This document shows, in pieces, positions 1-5,121 of a stretch of 5,121 nt of DNA (its first letter is position 1; each line of letters begins with the position of its first letter). The stretch spans positions 1 through 5,121 of the IMG/VR virus record IMGVR_UViG_3300020043_004237; one strand, 5' to 3'. Both the position numbers and the translations under genes were made by a program. Source of the DNA: a virus. Below the pieces are notes generated by a model. The model worked only from the letters and a program-made list of their open reading frames with translations, searched no databases and was not told the origin of the DNA.

Positions 1-85
1 CACGAACCATTCCGATAGGGTCTAATAAGAAGTTTGCGACTGGGCCAACGGCCCTTTTAATGTCACCTATTGGGTCCCATCCCAT
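1..85 (-). CDS. VP2: Partial duplicate of the 5' end of VP2 (first 28 codons, runs off the window). This is the same gene as 4147..5085, seen twice because of the circular overlap.
   Basis: The ATG at 85-83 on the minus strand is the copy of the ATG at 5085-5083. The sequence is identical to 5001-5085, which encodes MGWDPIGDIKRAVGPVANFLLDPIGMVR. Confidence 0.6.
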   Translation of the reverse strand, partial: MGWDPIGDIKRAVGPVANFLLDPIGMVR

Positions 86-121
86 TAGAACCTCCCGAGT
101 GTTGCTGGTACTGAGTAAGTC
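1..121. repeat. Terminal redundancy copy A. It is identical to 5001-5121 and marks closure of a 5000-nt circular genome.
   Basis: I compared 1-121 with 5001-5121 base by base and found no mismatch. The duplicated segment spans the VP1 stop / VP2 start junction. That fits an assembly overlap of a circle and does not fit a biological terminal repeat. Confidence 0.95.
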
Positions 122-1668
122 ATCATTGGTCTAGCGCATGTGTAATCGAATGCGAAGTCTGCGCGTATTGGAGCACTAAGAGAGGAACTAACTGCAAGTA
201 CACGATCAATAGGAGTATTAGAAACGATGAAGTCTTCGTTGAACTCCGGTAGAGAACCAAATTCTTCCGACATGTGCCATGCATCAAGTGACGTCGCATA
301 GTTAGAGCGGAATTCGCCTCGGATCTCTGATGGGCGGTAGCGGTAATCGGCATAGCGTTCTTGATAAGAGAAAACGTCGTCATCTGCTGATGTTCCTTGT
401 GCGAATATTTCTTTGTTTAAGATTTCTTGTTCACCAAGCCCTTGTAATTTAGGCCAGTAATAATCGTATCGAGTAGAGCGGTTCCACATTCTATACAGGC
501 CTTGTTGGTAAGTGATCGAAGCTTTGAAGGATATAAGTCCGAGTACGATACCGTGCTCGACAAACGATTTAGCGAATCCAAGGCGTCCGCCTCCTGCTGA
601 CATTGTTGCAAAAGCCGCGAGATTCGCTTGAGGCTTGCCTGTTTCCGTTGCTGAATTCTGAGCCACTGGGTGTACGTTAACGTCGACATATGATCCTCCT
701 AAATATTCGCTTCTATGTTGGGCATCTGGAAGCACTGTGTTGAAATGAGCTAATAATAATTCTGGGTATCTTGTTCCGCCGCGTGCGTCTAATTCGAACA
801 AGGATTGCATTAGCATAGCTTCTCGTAAGGCATTGATGGTTGCTGCTGTTGCTGTAGAAAGATCGGCTACAGCGCCAATATCAGAGCCCCAGAATAGTGG
901 TTGAGTAACCGCTTGAGCTGCTCCTCCCATAAATATAGCGTTTGTTCCTGCATTTGCTACTAGGGATTGATTAGCTTGTTGTATAGTAGATACCTGAAGA
1001 GAATGTCCTGTGCTTATTAATGGAGCAGTTGTTCCTAAAGGTAGTGTTACGTCTGGCCCTTTTTGTGGCCAAGGGAGGGACGATGTAAAGTAATCATGTG
1101 CTTTGTTAATTTTCTGTAATGGGAAGTCTGCTGCTACGTCTGGTCCGTCATCCATTGGAACGTCTACAGAATCCTGTAAATTTTGATCTCTGAACCATTG
1201 ATTATAAACTAAATTATAACCACGCAGCGGAAGTGCGTTTTTTACAACAAGATTAGGAACCGCAGTAGGAATGCCGAACTTGTCAAACACAGTACCGACA
1301 GCGAAGCCAGTAACAGCAGGTGCAGTAATCGACGGAGTAAGGTAATCTGTCGTGTCATCGGGGTTCTCCTGTTCTCCCATTTGCTTTTTAAAGTTTTCCC
1401 ATACCAAACGATTTGGAATGTGAAAGAAATGAACTGAAGCGTAAAGTCTGTCCATTAACGGCACTACTTGAGTGTTTACCCGTGCGAACATGTTTACATT
1501 TAAGTTGAAGGTGTCTCCTGGCAATACTTCATCTACGAAGAATGGATACAAATAATCGAATTGATATGTATCTTTTGCCTGGAAGTCTCGCCGGAATACT
1601 GAGCGCGGAGTGTTTACCGCGGGAATTTCTGCGAAACTGTGTTGGTTATGGCGTGAGCCGAATTGCAT
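85..1668 (-). CDS. VP1: Major capsid protein VP1 (Microviridae F-protein family, gokushovirus type)
   Basis: This is a 527-aa ORF. Its N-terminal block HNQHSFAEIP..PRSVF...FVDEVLPGDTFNLN..FARV....P.MD...HFFHIPNRLVWENF matches the capsid signature I recall for gokushovirus VP1. An AAGGAG Shine-Dalgarno (SD) motif sits at 1674-1679, 5 nt before the ATG at 1668. The stop TAA (87-85) overlaps the VP2 ATG (85-83) as TAATG. Confidence 0.93.
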   Translation of the reverse strand: MQFGSRHNQHSFAEIPAVNTPRSVFRRDFQAKDTYQFDYLYPFFVDEVLPGDTFNLNVNMFARVNTQVVPLMDRLYASVHFFHIPNRLVWENFKKQMGEQENPDDTTDYLTPSITAPAVTGFAVGTVFDKFGIPTAVPNLVVKNALPLRGYNLVYNQWFRDQNLQDSVDVPMDDGPDVAADFPLQKINKAHDYFTSSLPWPQKGPDVTLPLGTTAPLISTGHSLQVSTIQQANQSLVANAGTNAIFMGGAAQAVTQPLFWGSDIGAVADLSTATAATINALREAMLMQSLFELDARGGTRYPELLLAHFNTVLPDAQHRSEYLGGSYVDVNVHPVAQNSATETGKPQANLAAFATMSAGGGRLGFAKSFVEHGIVLGLISFKASITYQQGLYRMWNRSTRYDYYWPKLQGLGEQEILNKEIFAQGTSADDDVFSYQERYADYRYRPSEIRGEFRSNYATSLDAWHMSEEFGSLPEFNEDFIVSNTPIDRVLAVSSSLSAPIRADFAFDYTCARPMMTYSVPATLGRF

Positions 1669-1681
1669 GTGTTCTCCTTTG

Positions 1682-2584
1682 TTAGCCTTCGTAATTTCTA
1701 CGAAGATGTTTTAGTTTTTGTTCTTTTATTATTCTTTTAACTTTTAATCGCGATCGCGAATTTTCATAAATGAATTTTGGATCATCCATATAGGTTAAGT
1801 CACGTGATCTGTATTTCATGTATGCGTCAAAGTGGTATTTTTGCAACCAGTTTACATAGTATCTAGGGATTGGTGCTGACGAGCCGTCCGGCAAGATAAG
1901 TTCGTTATAATTGAATATATCGGGCCAATATTTTTCCAGCCATTTTTTTCCTATAGCGTACTGCCTACTAGCTTTCCCGTAATCTGGAGTCCTACCTTCA
2001 TATAACGGGGCCATTTTGCCCGTCAGCTTTTTTACTACGTATCGAGCTATATAAGCGGCTGTTTTGTAATTTGCTTCGCCTATTTCATTAGGTTTTAATT
2101 CTGAGTCATTATGTCCCCATAATTTTTCTAATGTTTCTGAAATGAAGATATCATCTCCCATTTCGTTTTTTCTAAGTAGCATTTTGTCTTTGAAGTCTAC
2201 GCCGAATAGTATTGCGTGGTAGTGGGGTCTGTGGGTTCTATCGCCGTATTCTCCAGCCATGAAGAAGGATATATTCTCGCCGAATTTTTTTCTTAATCTC
2301 TTCATGAACAGCTGAAAATGTTCGTGAAATAAGGTCGGGAGTCCGTCTTTTGTGTACACGAGTTCGCTGTTTTTGTATGTCAAGGTTATGAAACATGAAG
2401 TTTCGTGCATTTGCATTTCGTGAACGCATCTAACGGCCCATTCGCGAGATTTATCAATCCTGCAGCCTATGCATTGTCCGCACTTTATTGTAACGGGTAT
2501 AAACTCTGGATGATGGTTTTTTTCTTTAAAGGTTCTTTCTCCATTGCGATCGAATCCCATTTTTCTAGGATAGTAACAAGGCAT
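1682..2584 (-). CDS. VP4: Replication initiation protein VP4 (HUH rolling-circle endonuclease, phiX174 protein A analogue)
   Basis: This is a 300-aa ORF. It carries a Cys cluster CGQCIGCRIDKSREWAVRC and motif 1 CFITLTY. The HUH motif HRPHYHAILFG has its HYH codons at 2216-2224, verified as CAC TAC CAC. The double-tyrosine motif AAYIARYVVKK has Y178 at 2051-2053 and Y182 at 2039-2041, the same Y-x3-Y spacing as phiX174 A. An AAGAGG SD sits at 2590-2595, 5 nt before the ATG at 2584. Confidence 0.92.
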   Translation of the reverse strand: MPCYYPRKMGFDRNGERTFKEKNHHPEFIPVTIKCGQCIGCRIDKSREWAVRCVHEMQMHETSCFITLTYKNSELVYTKDGLPTLFHEHFQLFMKRLRKKFGENISFFMAGEYGDRTHRPHYHAILFGVDFKDKMLLRKNEMGDDIFISETLEKLWGHNDSELKPNEIGEANYKTAAYIARYVVKKLTGKMAPLYEGRTPDYGKASRQYAIGKKWLEKYWPDIFNYNELILPDGSSAPIPRYYVNWLQKYHFDAYMKYRSRDLTYMDDPKFIYENSRSRLKVKRIIKEQKLKHLRRNYEG

Positions 2585-2722: not shown

Positions 2723-2848
2723 TTAACACTCCTCTGGTTGAAACTTGCAATATACTTTCTCTACGGAAGGTGCAATTGCATCTGATGATAATCCTAACAC
2801 GGTAGCCAATATTAGAGCAACTATTGAAACAATTAGTCGTTTTTTCAT
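2723..2848 (-). CDS. 41-aa predicted single-pass membrane (signal-anchor) peptide of unknown function
   Basis: This ORF is not in the track, so I translated it by hand: MKKRLIVSIVALILATVLGLSSDAIAPSVEKVYCKFQPEEC*. It has a positive N-region (MKKR), a 16-residue hydrophobic core and a short polar tail with 2 Cys. A strong AAGGAGG SD sits at 2853-2859, 4 nt before the ATG at 2848. The ORF is on the same strand as all other genes and packs tightly against VP8. Confidence 0.6.
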   Translation of the reverse strand: MKKRLIVSIVALILATVLGLSSDAIAPSVEKVYCKFQPEEC

Positions 2849-2879: not shown

Positions 2880-2908
2880 TTTTTACTGACAACCTTAAAA
2901 GGTGTCAG
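2880..2908 (-). promoter_or_regulatory. Possible sigma70-like promoter for the 41-aa / VP8 / VP4 genes
   Basis: The minus strand reads CTGACA (2908-2903), a 17-nt spacer, then TAAAAA (2885-2880). It lies about 30 nt upstream of the ATG at 2848. The -10 element is weak, the call rests on motif matching alone, and it overlaps a hairpin. Confidence 0.25.
2886..2908. repeat. Imperfect inverted repeat / hairpin
   Basis: CTGACA (2886-2891) pairs with TGTCAG (2903-2908), and CC (2893-2894) pairs with GG (2901-2902). A2892 is bulged and the loop is TTAAAA. A T9 run precedes it on the plus strand, which is an A9 run following it on the minus strand. Confidence 0.6.
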
Positions 2909-2909
2909 T

Positions 2910-2944
2910 GGGCATATATTACAACAAGAAGTGAATATATGCCC
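2910..2944. repeat. Perfect 11-bp inverted repeat with a 13-nt loop, immediately downstream of the VP5 stop
   Basis: GGGCATATATT (2910-2920) is the exact reverse complement of AATATATGCCC (2934-2944). The loop is 2921-2933. It starts 14 nt after the VP5 stop codon (2958-2960) on the minus strand. Confidence 0.85.
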
Positions 2945-2957
2945 CCCTGAGGGTCCC

Positions 2958-3221
2958 CTACTGGACTGAAGCCAGTTTTTTAAGCGAGTCTGCTCGCATT
3001 ACGGACTTTGGTACAGCGTTATGGTGAACCGTACCTGTAGCGGTATCGAATTCACCAATGTGATAGAGAACGAAGTCCTCTGGATTAGTACATACTAATG
3101 TTTTTGTGTCGTTCGCCATGTGCTGGAACTGACGCTCGGCTTCGCCGATGCTTTTGTATGTTTGCGGATCTAAAAAGTATCCTGCTTTTTGGTCCTTAAT
3201 TGCTAAAATTTGTTTGATCAT
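2958..3221 (-). CDS. VP5: Non-structural protein VP5 (ORF5 family; proposed phiX174 protein C analogue), 87 aa
   Basis: MIKQILAIKDQKAGYFLDP...GEAERQF......NPEDFVLYHIGEFDTATGTV....PK matches the PEDF.LY.IGEFD..TG core I recall for gokushovirus ORF5/VP5. I prefer the internal ATG at 3221 over the track start at 3260. The ATG at 3221 has an AAGGAG SD at 3228-3233 with a 6-nt spacer, whereas 3260 has no SD. Confidence 0.85.
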   Translation of the reverse strand: MIKQILAIKDQKAGYFLDPQTYKSIGEAERQFQHMANDTKTLVCTNPEDFVLYHIGEFDTATGTVHHNAVPKSVMRADSLKKLASVQ

Positions 3222-3399
3222 TTTGTGCTCCTTTTTTAACGATTTTAACTTTGATTGCATTTGTTTTAGCTAAATTATTTAAAATACTTTGCGCTATTTC
3301 TAATAGCTGTTCTTTTGTACATGAAGGACGAAAGTCCCAAGTTGTATCTCCGTTGCAATGAACGCTAAATAGTTCATGTGATTTATGTTTGTATTTCAT
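3196..3399 (-). CDS. Hypothetical 67-aa protein (ORFan; no family recognised)
   Basis: The ORF is in the track. A GGAG SD sits at 3407-3410, 7 nt before the ATG at 3399. The start overlaps the stop of the upstream 26-aa ORF as ATGA. The 3' end overlaps the VP5 start by 26 nt in another frame. I saw no hydrophobic segment and no recognisable motif. Confidence 0.5.
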   Translation of the reverse strand: MKYKHKSHELFSVHCNGDTTWDFRPSCTKEQLLEIAQSILNNLAKTNAIKVKIVKKGAQNDQTNFSN

Positions 3400-3476
3400 T
3401 TTTTTTCTCCATTTGGTTTAGATCGCATTATTGCGATTTTTTGTTTATTTCGTTTATAGTACGATTTTTTTTTCAT
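3396..3476 (-). CDS. 26-aa lysine-rich peptide (a second small basic ORF); hypothetical
   Basis: I translated it by hand: MKKKSYYKRNKQKIAIMRSKPNGEKK*. It has 11 Lys/Arg residues in 26. An AAGGAG SD sits at 3483-3488, 6 nt before the ATG at 3476. The stop TGA (3398-3396) overlaps the next ATG (3399-3397). The ORF is very short and partly built from an A9 run, so it could be fortuitous. Confidence 0.4.
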   Translation of the reverse strand: MKKKSYYKRNKQKIAIMRSKPNGEKK

Positions 3477-3498
3477 TTATTTCTCCTTAGGTTTTTTA

Positions 3499-3526
3499 AA
3501 GATGTTACTTTAAAAAACTTCGTCAA
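3499..3526 (-). promoter_or_regulatory. Possible sigma70-like promoter for the small-gene cluster
   Basis: The minus strand reads TTGACG (3526-3521), a 16-nt spacer, then CATCTT (3504-3499). It lies in an AT-rich region downstream of the terminator-like hairpin and about 25 nt upstream of the ATG at 3476. The -10 element is poor and the call rests on motif matching alone. Confidence 0.25.
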
Positions 3527-3549
3527 GTTGTTTTGTGATTTTTATTTTA

Positions 3550-3574
3550 TTTTTTTTGGAGGACCCAAAAAAAA
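3550..3574. repeat. A/T-tract inverted repeat
   Basis: T8GG (3550-3559) and CCA8 (3565-3574) are reverse complements around the loop AGGAC. The stem is almost all A-T, so stability is low. Confidence 0.5.
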
Positions 3575-3591
3575 GTGATTTTTTCTTTTAT

Positions 3592-3605
3592 GCACCTATC
3601 GGTGC
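3592..3605. repeat. Small GC hairpin
   Basis: GCACC (3592-3596) pairs with GGTGC (3601-3605) around the tetraloop TATC. It abuts the base of the long hairpin. Confidence 0.6.
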
Positions 3606-3683
3606 GCCAGGCATGGATAAGATGGTATGGAAAAACACCCCCATCCGTGGGGGGTTTTCCCACACCACTTACCCACACCTGGC
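3606..3683 (-). other. 78-nt rod-like imperfect hairpin in the main intergenic region. It could be a structured RNA or an ssDNA element, and its function is unknown.
   Basis: These blocks pair: 3606-3611/3678-3683, 3614-3616/3673-3675, 3618-3621/3668-3671, 3623-3626/3664-3667, 3628-3630/3660-3662, 3632-3635/3655-3658, 3636/3654 and 3638-3643/3648-3653. The loop is TCCG (3644-3647). That gives 31 Watson-Crick pairs. All five mismatches are A/C on the plus strand, which makes them G-U or G-T wobble pairs on the minus strand. Confidence 0.65.
3631..3659 (-). terminator. Intrinsic-terminator-like hairpin closing the VP4-VP1-VP2-VP3 transcription unit
   Basis: The minus strand reads AAAAC-CCCCCA-CGGA-TGGGGG-TGTTTTTCC. 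This is a 6-bp GC stem with a tetraloop and a following T-rich tract, about 85 nt downstream of the VP3 stop. The A-tract / T-tract symmetry would also allow plus-strand termination. Confidence 0.55.
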
Positions 3684-3701
3684 CGAAAAATGAGGACTCG
3701 T

Positions 3702-3711
3702 CGGACGTCCG
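3702..3711. repeat. 10-bp perfect palindrome CGGACGTCCG
   Basis: The sequence is its own reverse complement and lies in the GC-rich island between the VP3 stop and the rod hairpin. It could be a protein-binding site or chance. Confidence 0.5.
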
Positions 3712-3742
3712 CCTGAGAGCCTGCTAGATCGGTCAAATGAGC

Positions 3743-4150
3743 CTATTTTTTTTCTTCGCTCTGCTCCGATTTTTTTATAGGCTCTTCTTTTTTGACCCGC
3801 AGGCCCAGGCGGACTGACTCGTCCACATTTTTAGGGTCCTGAAGGAAGTTGATTAGTTGAGTTGGATCATTACCGAAGCGATTTCGCGTCTCAGAAGGCA
3901 AGAGTTCGAATTGTTGTTTTGCTTTGATGACGGTGTTGAGTGCTCCCTGGAAATCTTTAATTTCCACGAAATCGCCGTAAGTCCCGTCTTTGGACGTGAT
4001 GTGTGTGATTATACCAGTTGTACGGTATTTTTTTATGATGTTGTTGACATTTACCATGTCTCGCATTGATTGCTTTGTTTTTGTTGGTTTCTCGTTGATA
4101 GTTTTGATACCAAGTGAACCATCTTTACGTTTGTATTGTTGTTGTTTCAT
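3743..4150 (-). CDS. VP3: Internal scaffolding protein VP3
   Basis: This is a 135-aa ORF. KQSMRDMVNVNNIIKKY..TG......YGDF....DFQGALN.V..A...F..LP...R..F.N.P..L..FL matches the gokushovirus VP3 scaffold pattern I recall. A GAGG SD sits at 4157-4160, 6 nt before the ATG at 4150. The ATG overlaps the VP2 stop as ATGA (4150-4147). Confidence 0.88.
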   Translation of the reverse strand: MKQQQYKRKDGSLGIKTINEKPTKTKQSMRDMVNVNNIIKKYRTTGIITHITSKDGTYGDFVEIKDFQGALNTVIKAKQQFELLPSETRNRFGNDPTQLINFLQDPKNVDESVRLGLRVKKEEPIKKSEQSEEKK

Positions 4151-5085
4151 TTTTTACCTCTACTTTTGTTAAATTGTTGGATGTATTTATCTCGATCTGA
4201 TTGTGTTGTACCTTTTTGATTATATGTTGAACCTTTTTTTCTAGATTCGTATGAAAACCATTCGTTACGAATATTATTTTCTGTACGTTTACCTGAATAT
4301 GGTGGTTCTGGCATGTCTAAAGGATGTTGTTTAAAGTATTCTTTCTGATCCATATTTTTACGTGCGCGAGTACCTAATTCTCCTGCTCCTTGAATAATAC
4401 GATTTAGGAAATGAGGCATCCAATTTTGAAATTTTTTATTTTCATTAATGTATGTTTCTCCCCATTTTTGTTGTTCTGTAAGTCCTTTCTGTTCTTTTGC
4501 GACTTCTGTTTGTTCTTTAGTTAGATTTTCTGTAGCTTTCATATTTGCTAATTCTTGATCTAACCGTTTTGAAGCCAAGTTGATGTTTTTTTGTGCTTGT
4601 GATGATGCTACTCCTGCTCCAAGTGAGTTTTGTGATGTAGACATTGCTCCGCCTGGTGATGATGCTCCTGCATTTGCTGATAAGATTGGATTTAAGCCTG
4701 CTGCCATAAGATCTTTGACTTCTCGTTGATGTGCTGTTGATGACATTCTTTCTTGAAAAGCCATTTGTTCTCGTGCTGCTGCTCTATTTGCTGCATTGGT
4801 TTGTTCTTGTCCTGCTGCTGTAAGTACACCATCCATGGTAAGACCTATACCTGCTCCTATACCTAATCCTGAAGCTGCTCCTGTAGTACCTGCCGTACCG
4901 GCTGCACCTATTCCTGCTGCTGCTCCTGCATAAGCTCCTGCGCCATATCCTGCGTAAAGCTGGGTGTCATCGACACCCAAGCCTTTTTTGTAAGTTTCAT
5001 CACGAACCATTCCGATAGGGTCTAATAAGAAGTTTGCGACTGGGCCAACGGCCCTTTTAATGTCACCTATTGGGTCCCATCCCAT
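4147..5085 (-). CDS. VP2: Minor capsid / DNA pilot protein VP2
   Basis: This is a 312-aa ORF. It has a Gly/Ala-rich hydrophobic N-terminal third followed by MAFQERMSSTAHQREVKDLMAAGLNPIL. That block matches the conserved FQERMS.TA.QR...D...AGLNP core I recall for gokushovirus VP2. A GGGAGG SD sits at 5091-5096, 5 nt before the ATG at 5085. Confidence 0.9.
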   Translation of the reverse strand: MGWDPIGDIKRAVGPVANFLLDPIGMVRDETYKKGLGVDDTQLYAGYGAGAYAGAAAGIGAAGTAGTTGAASGLGIGAGIGLTMDGVLTAAGQEQTNAANRAAAREQMAFQERMSSTAHQREVKDLMAAGLNPILSANAGASSPGGAMSTSQNSLGAGVASSQAQKNINLASKRLDQELANMKATENLTKEQTEVAKEQKGLTEQQKWGETYINENKKFQNWMPHFLNRIIQGAGELGTRARKNMDQKEYFKQHPLDMPEPPYSGKRTENNIRNEWFSYESRKKGSTYNQKGTTQSDRDKYIQQFNKSRGKK

Positions 5086-5121
5086 TAGAACCTCCCGAGT
5101 GTTGCTGGTACTGAGTAAGTC
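5001..5121. repeat. Terminal redundancy copy B (identical to 1-121)
   Basis: See copy A. The segment 5085-5121 repeats the last codons of VP1. Confidence 0.95.

What the first reader, a model, noticed from the sequence alone, without database searches (positions are those of the whole stretch)
3590..3742. GC-rich island in the only long intergenic region forms a 78-nt rod hairpin whose mismatches all become wobble pairs on the coding/virion-sense strand
The stretch 3477-3742 has no credible gene. Within it, 3477-3590 is extremely AT-rich with long T/A runs, and composition switches abruptly to GC-rich at about 3590-3742. Bases 3606-3683 fold into a rod with 31 Watson-Crick pairs, and I checked each pair by hand. 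The five non-pairs (3612/3677, 3613/3676, 3617/3672, 3627/3663, 3631/3659) are all A opposite C on the plus strand. On the minus strand all five therefore become U-G or T-G wobbles. The minus-sense molecule would then be paired nearly end to end, with 36 pairs and two 1-nt bulges. The minus strand is the mRNA sense and, for Microviridae, the packaged ssDNA sense. This one-sided pattern is what selection on a single-stranded structure would produce, and a random palindrome would not show it. The arms also carry an internal duplication: GGCATGG 3610-3616 with GGTATGG 3624-3630, and CCCACACC 3659-3666 with 3672-3679. The tip looks like an intrinsic terminator. A 5-bp hairpin (3592-3605) and a 10-bp palindrome (3702-3711) flank the rod. 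Candidate roles include a complementary-strand origin, since hairpins recognised by primase or RNA polymerase serve this way in G4 and Ff phages. Other candidates are a 3' end terminator or stabiliser for the structural-gene mRNA, a small ncRNA, or a recombination/attachment site. Sequence alone cannot decide among these.
Basis: partly seen in the sequence, partly recalled or inferred. Interest (0 to 1): 0.75.

Follow-up and report, generated by a model that had tools for sequence, protein, structure and literature searches.

The report
Conserved strand-specific hairpin in a gokushovirus
A small single-stranded DNA phage carries, in its main non-coding gap, a 78-base hairpin that pairs fully only on the packaged/coding strand and is kept by compensating mutations in relatives; it is probably where the host starts copying the incoming DNA and a weak transcription stop, a known kind of element in a phage group where none has been mapped.

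Summary
Window 3606-3683 folds on the minus (coding and virion-sense) strand into 36 pairs with 5 G·U and two 1-nt bulges (RNA -61.2 kcal/mol, z -10.4; DNA -29.4, z -8.3). The plus strand reaches only 31 pairs. The window is a circular 5,000-nt gokushovirus with all genes on the minus strand.

A homologous rod follows VP3 in six further lineages. The tip is conserved, the outer stem has turned over while staying paired, and each rod has 4-6 wobble pairs on the coding strand and none on the complement. The adjacent 5-bp hairpin also covaries.

The rod is by far the most stable local structure of the genome. The same scan picks the known complementary-strand origins of phiX174 and G4, and the packaging hairpin of M13, which show the same one-sided G·T pattern.

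The tip (6-8 G-C pairs, then U4-5) is the only good terminator-like site on the coding strand, but it scores as weak.

Best reading (about 0.4): a virion-DNA hairpin serving as complementary-strand origin, with a leaky terminator at its tip. An RNA-only terminator or 3' stabiliser is nearly as likely (about 0.33). Function is inferred, not shown. I file it as a new member of a known kind, of moderate interest.

The parts
3606..3683 (-). Rod hairpin H1. 5' arm 3683..3648, loop CGGA 3647..3644, 3' arm 3643..3606. 36 pairs including 5 G·U, with bulged U at 3637 and 3622.
   Evidence: folds and shuffles; most stable 80-nt window of the whole genome; homologous rods with covariation in L015, L016, L017, L023/L025, L024/L026 and L029.
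3628..3655 (-). Tip of the rod, an intrinsic-terminator-like sub-element: CCCCCC-ACGGA-UGGGGG(U)G followed by UUUUU (U-run 3635..3631), preceded by AAAA that pairs with the U-run.
   Evidence: the only strong terminator-like site on the coding strand; tip sequence AAA-C6-loop-G7-TTTT conserved in all rod-bearing relatives.
3592..3605 (-). Mini-hairpin H2, GCACC-GAUA-GGUGC, directly abutting the rod. The loop is of GNNA type in four lineages.
   Evidence: Stem changes on both sides in relatives (GCACC/GGTGC, TCACC/GGTGA, TTCCC/GGGAA, GTTTGC/GCAAAC); 3 of 5 pairs have double changes.
3575..3591 (-). A-rich tract after H2 (AUAAAAGAAAAAAUCAC). In the predicted fold it pairs weakly with the U-run 3684-3693 upstream of the rod, closing a three-way junction.
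   Evidence: A-rich tract present in all relatives; DNA fold. The closing helix is A/T only and is weakly supported.
3684..3693 (-). T-run flank immediately 5' of the rod (UCAUUUUUCG).
   Evidence: Relatives have CGTTTTAC, CATTTTTAC or CATTTTCTTCC at the same place.
3550..3574 (-). Hairpin H3, U8GG-GUCCU-CCA8. Relatives have a hairpin at the same position with a different sequence.
3521..3530 (-). Conserved box CAACTTGACG, a -35-like TTGAC[AG]. No convincing -10 element at 16-18 nt.
   Evidence: [AC]CTTGAC[AG] lies 160-435 nt downstream of VP3 in the window and seven relatives (L015, L016, L019, L023, L024, L027, L034), and CTTGAC boxes are also in the phiMH2K gap. One search finds no full sigma-70 match here.
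3491..3518 (-). AT-rich hairpin H4, GUUUUUUAAAG-UAACAU-CUUUAAAAAAC, between the box and the Shine-Dalgarno site of the next ORF.
   Evidence: The stem covaries (TTTCCTT/AAGGAAA in L015, L023, L024).
3743..4150 (-). VP3 (internal scaffold) gene, last gene of the VP1-VP2-VP3 block. Its stop codon lies 59 nt upstream of the rod.
   Evidence: PF09675, phrog_1642.

Best explanation
The rod is a cis-acting hairpin of the plus-sense single strand, which in Microviridae is both the packaged DNA and the mRNA sense.

Most likely it works first at the DNA level. In the incoming, SSB-coated virion circle it is the one long duplex that stays folded, and it marks where host priming machinery (primosome, primase or RNA polymerase) starts complementary-strand synthesis. 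This would make it a complementary-strand origin in the sense of the phiX174 PriA site or the G4 origin.

Its GC-rich tip followed by a U-run probably also acts in the transcript as a weak, leaky intrinsic terminator or 3' hairpin ending the VP1-VP2-VP3 message, ahead of the next transcription unit.

Shown here: the structure, its strand specificity, its conservation by covariation, its rank as the most stable structure of the genome, and the terminator-like shape of the tip. Inferred: both functions, and which host factor recognises it.
For: 1. Pairing is selected on the coding/virion strand only. There are 36 pairs with 5 G·U against 31 pairs with 0 G·U on the complement. The same holds in all seven versions, 4-6 G·U against 0.

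2. The whole rod is kept by compensatory change, including the part 3' of the U-run that a terminated RNA would never contain.

3. It is the extreme outlier of local stability on the virion strand: DNA parameters z -7.4, -29.4 kcal/mol against -16.5 for the runner-up; RNA -61.2 against -31.2.

4. Calibration. The identical scan returns as top hit the F-G intergenic hairpin of phiX174 (2308-2373), which is the PriA recognition region according to Shlomai & Kornberg 1980 as cited in PMC9865509. It returns the annotated complementary-strand origin region of G4 (3917-3992; primer 3970-3997 in the record). In M13 it returns hairpin A, 5499-5576.

5. Hairpins that I know from memory to act at the DNA level show the same one-sided G·T pattern: M13 hairpin A 5 against 0, M13 minus-origin hairpins B and C 2 against 0 each, phiX174 hairpin 2 against 0. 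The roles are not annotated in the M13 record.

6. It lies in the main non-coding gap.

7. Tip as terminator: only strong terminator-like site on the coding strand. The A-run/C-run/G-run/U-run order is conserved in all lineages while loops and outer stems vary.

8. The gap behaves like an exchangeable cassette. L019 and L027 (VP3 75% and 73% identical) lack the rod and carry other hairpins, while L029 (51%) has it. From my own knowledge, single-strand origins of rolling-circle plasmids behave this way.
Against: - No signature of any known priming system was found. There is no -35/-10 mimic in the stem (reading). A CTG start triplet as in G4 is not conserved, being absent in L015 and L017. DnaA-box-like 8/9 matches cluster in the rod, but their genome-wide count is below chance.
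- Close relatives without the rod must prime elsewhere. A hairpin pair conserved in the window, L016, L017, L023, L024 and L027, whose first hairpin is also present in phiMH2K, lies in the second gap (window 2944..2885) and is an alternative site for replication signals.
- The virion strand and the mRNA have the same sequence, so no computation here separates DNA-level from RNA-level selection.
- The terminator score of the tip is marginal.
- The host is unknown.
Confidence: 0.4

Rival explanations
1. RNA-only element. The tip is the intrinsic terminator of the structural-gene mRNA. The extended helix plus H2 acts in terminated or read-through transcripts as a 3' protective structure, or as an RNase III-type processing site that uncouples the upstream and downstream messages. 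The DNA hairpin is then a by-product.
For: The tip has canonical shape and position: 6-8 G-C pairs, a 4-6 nt loop, then U4-5, 59 nt after the stop of the last structural gene and upstream of a conserved TTGAC box. It is the only such site on the coding strand. The same CCC-ACGGA-GGGGG-TTTT tip occurs as a plain terminator-like hairpin in unrelated phage contigs. G·U pairs and C(GNNA)G mini-hairpins are typical of RNA helices (own knowledge). The helix of 23-36 bp is long enough for RNase III (own knowledge).
Against: A transcript terminated at the U-run lacks the 3' outer arm, so termination alone does not explain covariation of the outer stem. The U-run is short and fully paired, and the score is marginal. 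Hairpins at the same place in sister lineages (L019, L027, phiMH2K) have no U-run. The wobble pattern is equally present in hairpins I know to act at the DNA level in M13 and phiX174.
Confidence: 0.33
2. Another DNA-level role on the virion strand. Examples are a signal used by Rep (VP4) or the procapsid during strand termination or packaging, or a structure that organises the packaged genome. This would be analogous in form to the 78-nt packaging hairpin of filamentous phages.
For: The dimensions are almost the same as M13 hairpin A: 78 nt, 32 bp, 5 G·T, -28.5 kcal/mol, directly after the last gene, against 78 nt, 36 bp, 5 G·T, -29.4.
Against: Microviridae package through Rep-coupled synthesis into procapsids, and no packaging hairpin is known for them (own knowledge). 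Close relatives do without the rod. There are no homologues of filamentous-phage assembly proteins.
Confidence: 0.08
3. A tolerated palindrome without a specific function, for example a remnant of hairpin-templated duplication or of a mobile insertion. In this case C-to-T damage on the packaged strand would create the G·T bias.
For: The window and L016 rods carry a nested duplication of both arms. Rod length varies from 23 to 36 bp. The gap is mosaic among relatives.
Against: Double compensatory changes occur at 11 pairs, and pairing is kept while the outer stem sequence is completely replaced. Wobble positions are conserved across lineages whose VP3 proteins are only about half identical (51% to the window's). 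No copy exists elsewhere in the genome or in bacterial genomes.
Confidence: 0.08
4. A folded single-strand recombination or attachment site: a XerCD/dif mimic as in CTX phage and enterobacterial gokushovirus prophages, or an integron attC-like site.
For: It is a long imperfect hairpin on the packaged strand. GGTGTGGGTAA in the window resembles the XerC arm GGTGCGCATAA at 8 of 11 positions (reading against a consensus from memory).
Against: There is no XerD-arm match in or near the rod. The XerC-like stretch is not conserved in relatives. No prophage or host copy was found in 185,579 species genomes using the conserved tip pattern plus the covariance model. No integrase gene is present.
Confidence: 0.03
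5. A small RNA: a 3'UTR-derived sRNA ending at the tip terminator, or a processed hairpin RNA.
For: The G-rich 5' arm followed by a terminator hairpin and a U-tail has the layout of Hfq-type sRNAs (own knowledge). There is a weak, sub-threshold resemblance to a microRNA precursor model (19.8 bits against a gathering score of 80).
Against: There is no conserved promoter upstream. An sRNA ending at the U-run does not explain why the 3' arm complements the would-be seed. No Rfam family matches.
Confidence: 0.05

Closest known systems
phiX174 primosome assembly site (PriA / n' recognition hairpin, F-G intergenic region) and G4 complementary-strand origin
   Same: Same virus family. It is a hairpin of the packaged strand in a non-coding gap downstream of a structural gene. 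It is the most stable local structure of the virion DNA in the same scan. G·T wobbles occur on the virion strand only.
   Different: No sequence or covariance-model similarity. The rod is much longer and more stable (36 bp against 21 bp; -29 against -14 to -17 kcal/mol). The G4 CTG start is not conserved. The host and priming route are unknown, and no biochemical evidence exists.
Intrinsic (Rho-independent) terminators, including A-tract/U-tract 'extended' or bidirectional ones
   Same: The tip has a GC-rich stem, a short loop, a U-run immediately 3' and an A-run 5' that pairs with it. It sits after the last gene of a block.
   Different: The helix continues 10-24 bp beyond the U-run and that extension is under selection. 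The U-run is only 4-5 long and the classical score is marginal.
Ff (M13/f1) intergenic-region hairpins: A (packaging signal) and B, C (minus-strand origin)
   Same: A cluster of several hairpins in the single large gap of an ssDNA phage. Hairpin A has nearly identical size, pair count, wobble count and stability, and follows the last gene.
   Different: Unrelated virus and assembly pathway. No sigma-70 promoter mimic is seen, and there is no sequence similarity.
Conserved intergenic hairpins reported in 'reekeekee-' and 'roodoodoo-' microviruses (PMC9865509)
   Same: Long intergenic hairpins (up to 64 nt) with compensatory substitutions in uncultured Microviridae. They were proposed but not proven to be the negative-strand initiation site.
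   Different: A different clade and genomic position (near Rep there). The one-sided wobble pattern and the terminator-like tip did not appear in the passages of that paper that I read.
Single-strand origins (ssoA/T/U/W) of rolling-circle plasmids
   Same: Long imperfect, orientation-specific palindromes that behave as exchangeable cassettes among related replicons (own knowledge; compare).
   Different: The conserved RS-B / CS-6 motifs (from memory) are not apparent, and loop sequences vary among relatives.

Membership tests
Intrinsic terminator | GC-rich stem of about 5-14 bp with a 3-8 nt loop, in the sense orientation downstream of a gene | tested here: met
   (6 pairs, 5 G-C, loop 4-7, minus strand 3655..3637). 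Conserved in six further lineages.
Intrinsic terminator | U-rich tract immediately 3' of the stem, strong enough to give a positive classical (d'Aubenton-Carafa-type) score | tested here: inconclusive
   The U-run is 4-5 long, then CCA. Modern energy parameters were used, so the threshold is approximate.
Intrinsic terminator | RNA 3' ends at the U-tract in vivo or in vitro | not testable with these tools
   No transcript data available.
ssDNA-phage complementary-strand origin (phiX174 PAS / G4 oric type) | Stable hairpin of the packaged strand in a non-coding region, strand-specific | tested here: met
ssDNA-phage complementary-strand origin (phiX174 PAS / G4 oric type) | Recognition motif of a known priming route: G4-type CTG start 3' of a hairpin, a sigma-70 -35/-10 mimic as in Ff or ssoA, or the PriA-site AAGCGG (motifs from memory) | tested here: not met
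   CTG is absent in L015 and L017. There is no promoter-like match in the rod. No AAGCGG occurs in any rod. DnaA-box-like matches are not above chance genome-wide.
ssDNA-phage complementary-strand origin (phiX174 PAS / G4 oric type) | Supports orientation-dependent priming or ssDNA-to-RF conversion | not testable with these tools
   Needs biochemistry or a complementation assay.
Any Rfam RNA family | Covariance-model score at or above the gathering threshold | tested here: not met
   The best hit on the rod is mir-2731 at 19.8 bits against a threshold of 80, E = 2.
XerCD/dif-type folded attP | XerC arm, 6-nt spacer and XerD arm formed in the stem | tested here: not met
   No XerD-arm match within the rod at up to 2 mismatches. 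The XerC-like 8/11 stretch is not conserved. No integrated copies were found.
Ff packaging signal | Hairpin recognised by filamentous-phage assembly proteins (pVII/pIX/pI) | tested here: not met
   The gene set is gokushovirus-like (VP1, VP2, VP3, VP4, VP5). The resemblance is physical only.
RNase III substrate | About 20 bp or more of near-continuous dsRNA | tested here: met
   23-36 bp in all lineages. Cleavage itself is not testable here.

The most novel reading that the evidence does not exclude
The rod is the first identifiable complementary-strand origin of a gokushovirus. It would be a cassette-like, host-specific single-strand origin that is swapped among close relatives as in rolling-circle plasmids, that doubles as the terminator of the structural operon, and that may recruit the host through the DnaA-box-like duplex TGTGGGAAA/TTTTCCAT(A/G) in its conserved inner stem, an 'ABC-primosome' type entry site.
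Probability: 0.3. Interest if true: 0.65.

Novelty: new member of a known kind. Interest (0 to 1): 0.42.

Why it matters
Gokushoviruses are among the most abundant ssDNA phages in guts, wastewater and oceans. To my knowledge, none of their cis-acting replication or transcription signals has been mapped experimentally.

This element is a concrete, well-supported candidate. It has a defined structure, clear strand specificity and natural compensatory variants, so it could be tested directly by single-strand-origin complementation, a terminator reporter, or stem-swap mutants in a 5-kb synthetic genome.

Two by-products may be useful for annotating other ssDNA viruses:
- the 'most stable virion-strand hairpin' scan recovers the known origins of phiX174 and G4;
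- one-sided G·T wobbles mark functional ssDNA hairpins.

If the rod turns out to be only a terminator, it is ordinary biology.

Tried and rejected
- **Rfam scan.** Run at a permissive E-value; only chance-level hits. There are no tRNA or tmRNA genes.
- **GenBank phages.** Megablast of the whole genome and blastn of the gap found no match. The closest named phages have VP1 below 60% identity, including Bdellovibrio phage phiMH2K at 54%.
- **IMG/VR pattern scans.** The exact 18-mer gave nothing. The tip-only pattern gave generic terminator-like hairpins in unrelated contigs. The full-core pattern gave only the one relative, L015.
- **Bacterial and archaeal genomes.** The core pattern gave 61 scattered hits. 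None matches the rod model beyond chance (best 21 bits), so this is not a host repeat or a prophage end.
- **Metagenome and IMG/VR scans with a VP3 profile.** Only distant gokushoviruses without the rod were found.
- **Whole-gap strand comparison.** It is uninformative because base composition dominates. The asymmetry belongs to the rod itself.
- **RNA versus DNA from wobble density.** I first took the wobble density and the GNNA loop as favouring RNA. I rejected this after finding the same pattern in the M13 and phiX174 hairpins that I know to act at the DNA level.
- **DnaA box.** 8/9 matches cluster in the rod, but the window holds 8 matches against 12.5 expected by chance. I kept it only as a lead.
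- **dif/Xer site.** Rejected.
- **10-bp palindrome 3702-3711.** Not conserved in relatives.
- **CAACTTGAC box as the Rep nick site.** This remains possible, but a better candidate lies in the other gap.
- **Literature.** Searches for SpV4 and phiX174 terminator papers returned nothing usable.
Full report
**What the window is**

The first and last 121 bases are identical. The window is therefore a circular genome of 5,000 nt assembled with an overlap. All recognisable genes are on the minus strand:
- VP1 major capsid: 1668..85, PF02305
- VP4 replication initiator: 2584..1682
- VP5: 3260..2958
- VP3 scaffold: 4150..3743, PF09675
- VP2 pilot protein: 5085..4147

The order VP1-VP2-VP3-gap-VP5-gap-small basic ORF-VP4 is that of Bdellovibrio phage phiMH2K. 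PhiMH2K is among the nearest named relatives, at only 54% VP1 identity. No GenBank phage matches at the DNA level. In Microviridae the packaged strand has the sense of the mRNAs (established knowledge). The minus strand of the window is therefore both the coding sense and the virion sense.

**Checking the observation**

Every element of the description holds.

| Strand, molecule | Pairs | Energy (kcal/mol) | z-score |
|---|---|---|---|
| minus, RNA | 36 (5 G·U), two 1-nt bulges | -61.2 | -10.4 (0 of 200 shuffles as good) |
| minus, DNA | 36 | -29.4 | -8.3 |
| plus, RNA | 31, no wobble | -43.6 | -6.5 |
| plus, DNA | 31 | -23.2 | -5.6 |

- The five A·C oppositions on the plus strand are at the named coordinates and become G·U on the minus strand.
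- The duplicated heptamers and octamers, the 5-bp hairpin at 3592-3605 and the palindrome at 3702-3711 are all present.
- GC rises from about 0.23 to about 0.56 at about 3590.
- The short ORFs crossing the rod have no family hits.

In a sliding 80-nt scan of the whole genome the rod is an extreme outlier. As RNA it gives -61.2 against a mean of -12.6 (sd 6.1) and a runner-up of -31.2. As DNA it gives z -7.4.

**Relatives**

Contigs encoding the identical VP3 come from several sequencing runs and three JGI samples. They carry the same gap almost unchanged. The single difference inside the rod is at window 3626. It is A on the minus strand here and in two other contigs, and G in five. The change turns an A-U pair into G·U on the minus strand and would be a mismatch on the plus strand.

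VP3 homologues from the protein search led to more distant genomes. One of these sources is labelled wastewater. Folding the region after VP3 shows a homologous rod in L015 (VP3 74%), L016 (87%), L017 (74%), L023/L025 and L024/L026 (71%) and L029 (51%). All share three features:
- The tip AAA-CCCCCC-loop-GGGGGGG-TTTT.
- An inner arm GGTGTGG / CCATGCC with a tandem U·G/G·U.
- An outer stem whose sequence is entirely different between lineages yet stays paired.

Rod length ranges from 23 to 36 bp. The window and L016 carry a nested duplication of both arms. Each version has 4-6 G·U pairs on the coding strand and none when the complement is folded.

On the MAFFT alignment RNAalifold recovers the rod and the adjacent mini-hairpin, and 11 of 27 pairs change on both sides. 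The counting tool gives the following:
- 93.6% of cells are paired, against 45-63% when partners are slid by 1-3 columns.
- 29 compensatory cells are found, against 4-10 when slid.
- No shuffle out of 500 reaches the observed covariation score.

The mini-hairpin H2 changes from GCACC/GGTGC to TCACC/GGTGA, TTCCC/GGGAA and GTTTGC/GCAAAC, mostly with GNNA loops.

With only seven versions these statistics are indicative rather than definitive. The direction of all the evidence is the same.

**Distribution**

A covariance model of the module finds only these lineages. It finds nothing convincing in:
- 61 bacterial-genome loci that share the tip pattern;
- distant gokushoviruses from metagenomes or IMG/VR;
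- phiMH2K, phiX174, G4 or M13.

Rfam has no family for it.

Two lineages as close by VP3 as those above lack the rod: L019 (75%) and L027 (73%). They carry other GC-rich hairpins in the same gap, mostly perfect palindromes without strand bias and without U-runs. The more distant L029 has the rod. The gap therefore behaves as a mosaic, cassette-like region.

**Anatomy of the gap on the coding strand**

1. VP3 stop
2. 59 nt of moderately conserved sequence ending in a T-run
3. the rod (H1)
4. H2, directly abutting the rod
5. an A-rich tract
6. a third hairpin (H3)
7. the conserved box CAACTTGAC[GA]
8. an AT-rich hairpin (H4) whose stem covaries
9. a Shine-Dalgarno site and a 26-codon basic ORF coupled to the next gene

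The box looks like a -35 hexamer, but no acceptable -10 follows.

**Terminator reading**

The tip is the only strong terminator-like site on the coding strand. The order A-run, C-run, G-run, U-run is invariant, whereas loops and outer stems vary.

Three points count against a simple terminator:
- The U-run has only 4-5 residues.
- A transcript released at the U-run would lack the outer 3' arm. Termination cannot explain why that arm is held complementary.
- Sister lineages have hairpins without U-runs at this position.

**DNA-level reading**

I first thought the wobble density favoured RNA. The comparison removed that argument. With DNA parameters, G·T pairs on the virion strand against the complement are:

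| Hairpin | Virion strand | Complement |
|---|---|---|
| M13 hairpin A (packaging signal) | 5 | 0 |
| M13 minus-origin hairpin B | 2 | 0 |
| M13 minus-origin hairpin C | 2 | 0 |
| phiX174 F-G intergenic hairpin | 2 | 0 |

These are the best-studied DNA-level hairpins of ssDNA coliphages. Their roles are from my own knowledge; the M13 record does not annotate them.

The whole-genome stability scan, applied unchanged, returns these top hits:
- phiX174: the F-G hairpin at 2308-2373. This is the region recognised by the primosome protein, per Shlomai & Kornberg 1980 as cited in PMC9865509.
- G4: 3917-3992, overlapping the annotated primer and complementary-strand origin.
- M13: hairpin A, which has almost the same dimensions as the rod (78 nt, 32 bp, 5 G·T, -28.5 kcal/mol).

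In both Microviridae with a mapped complementary-strand origin, 'the most stable hairpin of the packaged strand' therefore identifies that origin. By the same rule the rod is the predicted origin here and in L015, L017 and L024. It ranks second in L023.

**Limits**

- No motif of a known priming route is present or conserved.
- The rod-less relatives must use something else.
- A hairpin pair in the second gap is another possible home for replication signals. It is conserved in the window, L016, L017, L023, L024 and L027, and its first hairpin is also present in phiMH2K.
- DNA and RNA share one sequence, so the two levels cannot be separated in silico.

**Conclusion**

The structure is real, strand-specific and under selection. 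I commit to a virion-DNA hairpin acting as complementary-strand origin, with a leaky terminator or 3' hairpin function of its tip, at about 0.4. The RNA-only reading is at about 0.33. Minor rivals are another DNA-level role, a functionless palindrome, a Xer or att site, and a small RNA.

Conserved intergenic hairpins with compensatory changes have already been reported in other uncultured microvirus clades and tentatively assigned the same role (PMC9865509). This is therefore a new member of a known kind rather than a new kind of element.

Noticed in passing
window 1-121 and 5001-5121: Exact 121-nt terminal repeat. The window is a complete circular genome of 5,000 nt assembled with an overlap.
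   Followed up: yes
window 2944..2885 (minus strand), between VP5 and the 41-aa ORF: Two hairpins conserved in the window, L016, L017, L023, L024 and L027. The first is GGGCATATAT-loop-ATATATGCCC with loop CACTTCTTGTTGTAA. That loop resembles the phiX174 viral-strand origin core CAACTTGATATTAATAAC (from memory) and the loops CTACTTG[AT]TGTAA in L032, L035, L036 and phiMH2K. The second is ACTGACACC-TTTT-AAGGTTGTCAGT followed by an A-run. This is a likely Rep (VP4) nick site / plus-strand origin, and the second most stable structure of the genome.
   Followed up: partly
window 3530..3521 and 3518..3491 (minus strand): Conserved box CAACTTGAC[GA] followed at once by an AT-rich hairpin whose stem covaries among relatives. 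It looks like a -35 element but has no usable -10. Its first 8 nt equal the phiX174 nick-site core, so it may be a promoter, a Rep site or both.
   Followed up: partly
window 3476..3396 (minus strand): Unannotated 26-codon, very basic ORF (MKKKSYYKRNKQKIAIMRSKPNGEKK) with a strong Shine-Dalgarno site (TAAGGAG). Its stop overlaps the start of the 67-aa ORF (ATGA). Possibly a small DNA-binding peptide or a leader (read).
   Followed up: no
window 3399..3196 (67-aa ORF) compared with L003, L006, L007: Among strains with identical VP3 and a near-identical gap, the 67-aa ORF is present in some (window, L002, L004, L008). It is absent in others, where VP5 starts directly after the gap. It is therefore an accessory gene with a recombination boundary at the end of the gap.
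   Followed up: partly
window 2848..2723 (minus strand): The 41-aa ORF upstream of VP4 occupies the position of the phiMH2K 'putative DNA binding protein similar to phiX174 J'.
   Followed up: no
L019:2938-2968, L027:1152-1186, L034:~2132-2160, L105:1739-1775, L106:1353-1400: A second family of conserved gap hairpins, GGGTGTTAGGG-N-CCCTTA(T/C). It occurs in gokushoviruses that lack the rod, upstream of their CTTGAC box.
   Followed up: no
L034:1900-2080: The gap after VP3 contains a C/T/A-rich direct repeat of about 85 nt (…CCAACATACCATCTACACTCTACCCATACCCACTCATCACTCTCACATCTCTCTACCTACT…) in two copies, with almost no G.
   Followed up: no
window 3588-3677: Four of the eight DnaA-box-like (TTWTNCACA, up to 1 mismatch) matches of the window fall in or next to the rod. 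L023 has a perfect match (TGTGTAAAA on the 5' arm). Genome-wide the count is below chance, and the matches are linked by the palindrome and the duplication.
   Followed up: partly
M13 (L102) 5499-5576 compared with window 3606-3683: The M13 packaging hairpin and the rod have nearly identical length, pair number, G·T count and DNA folding energy, and both have a GGTGTGG-type G/T-rich 5' arm. This is probably convergence of wobble-rich ssDNA hairpins.
   Followed up: partly
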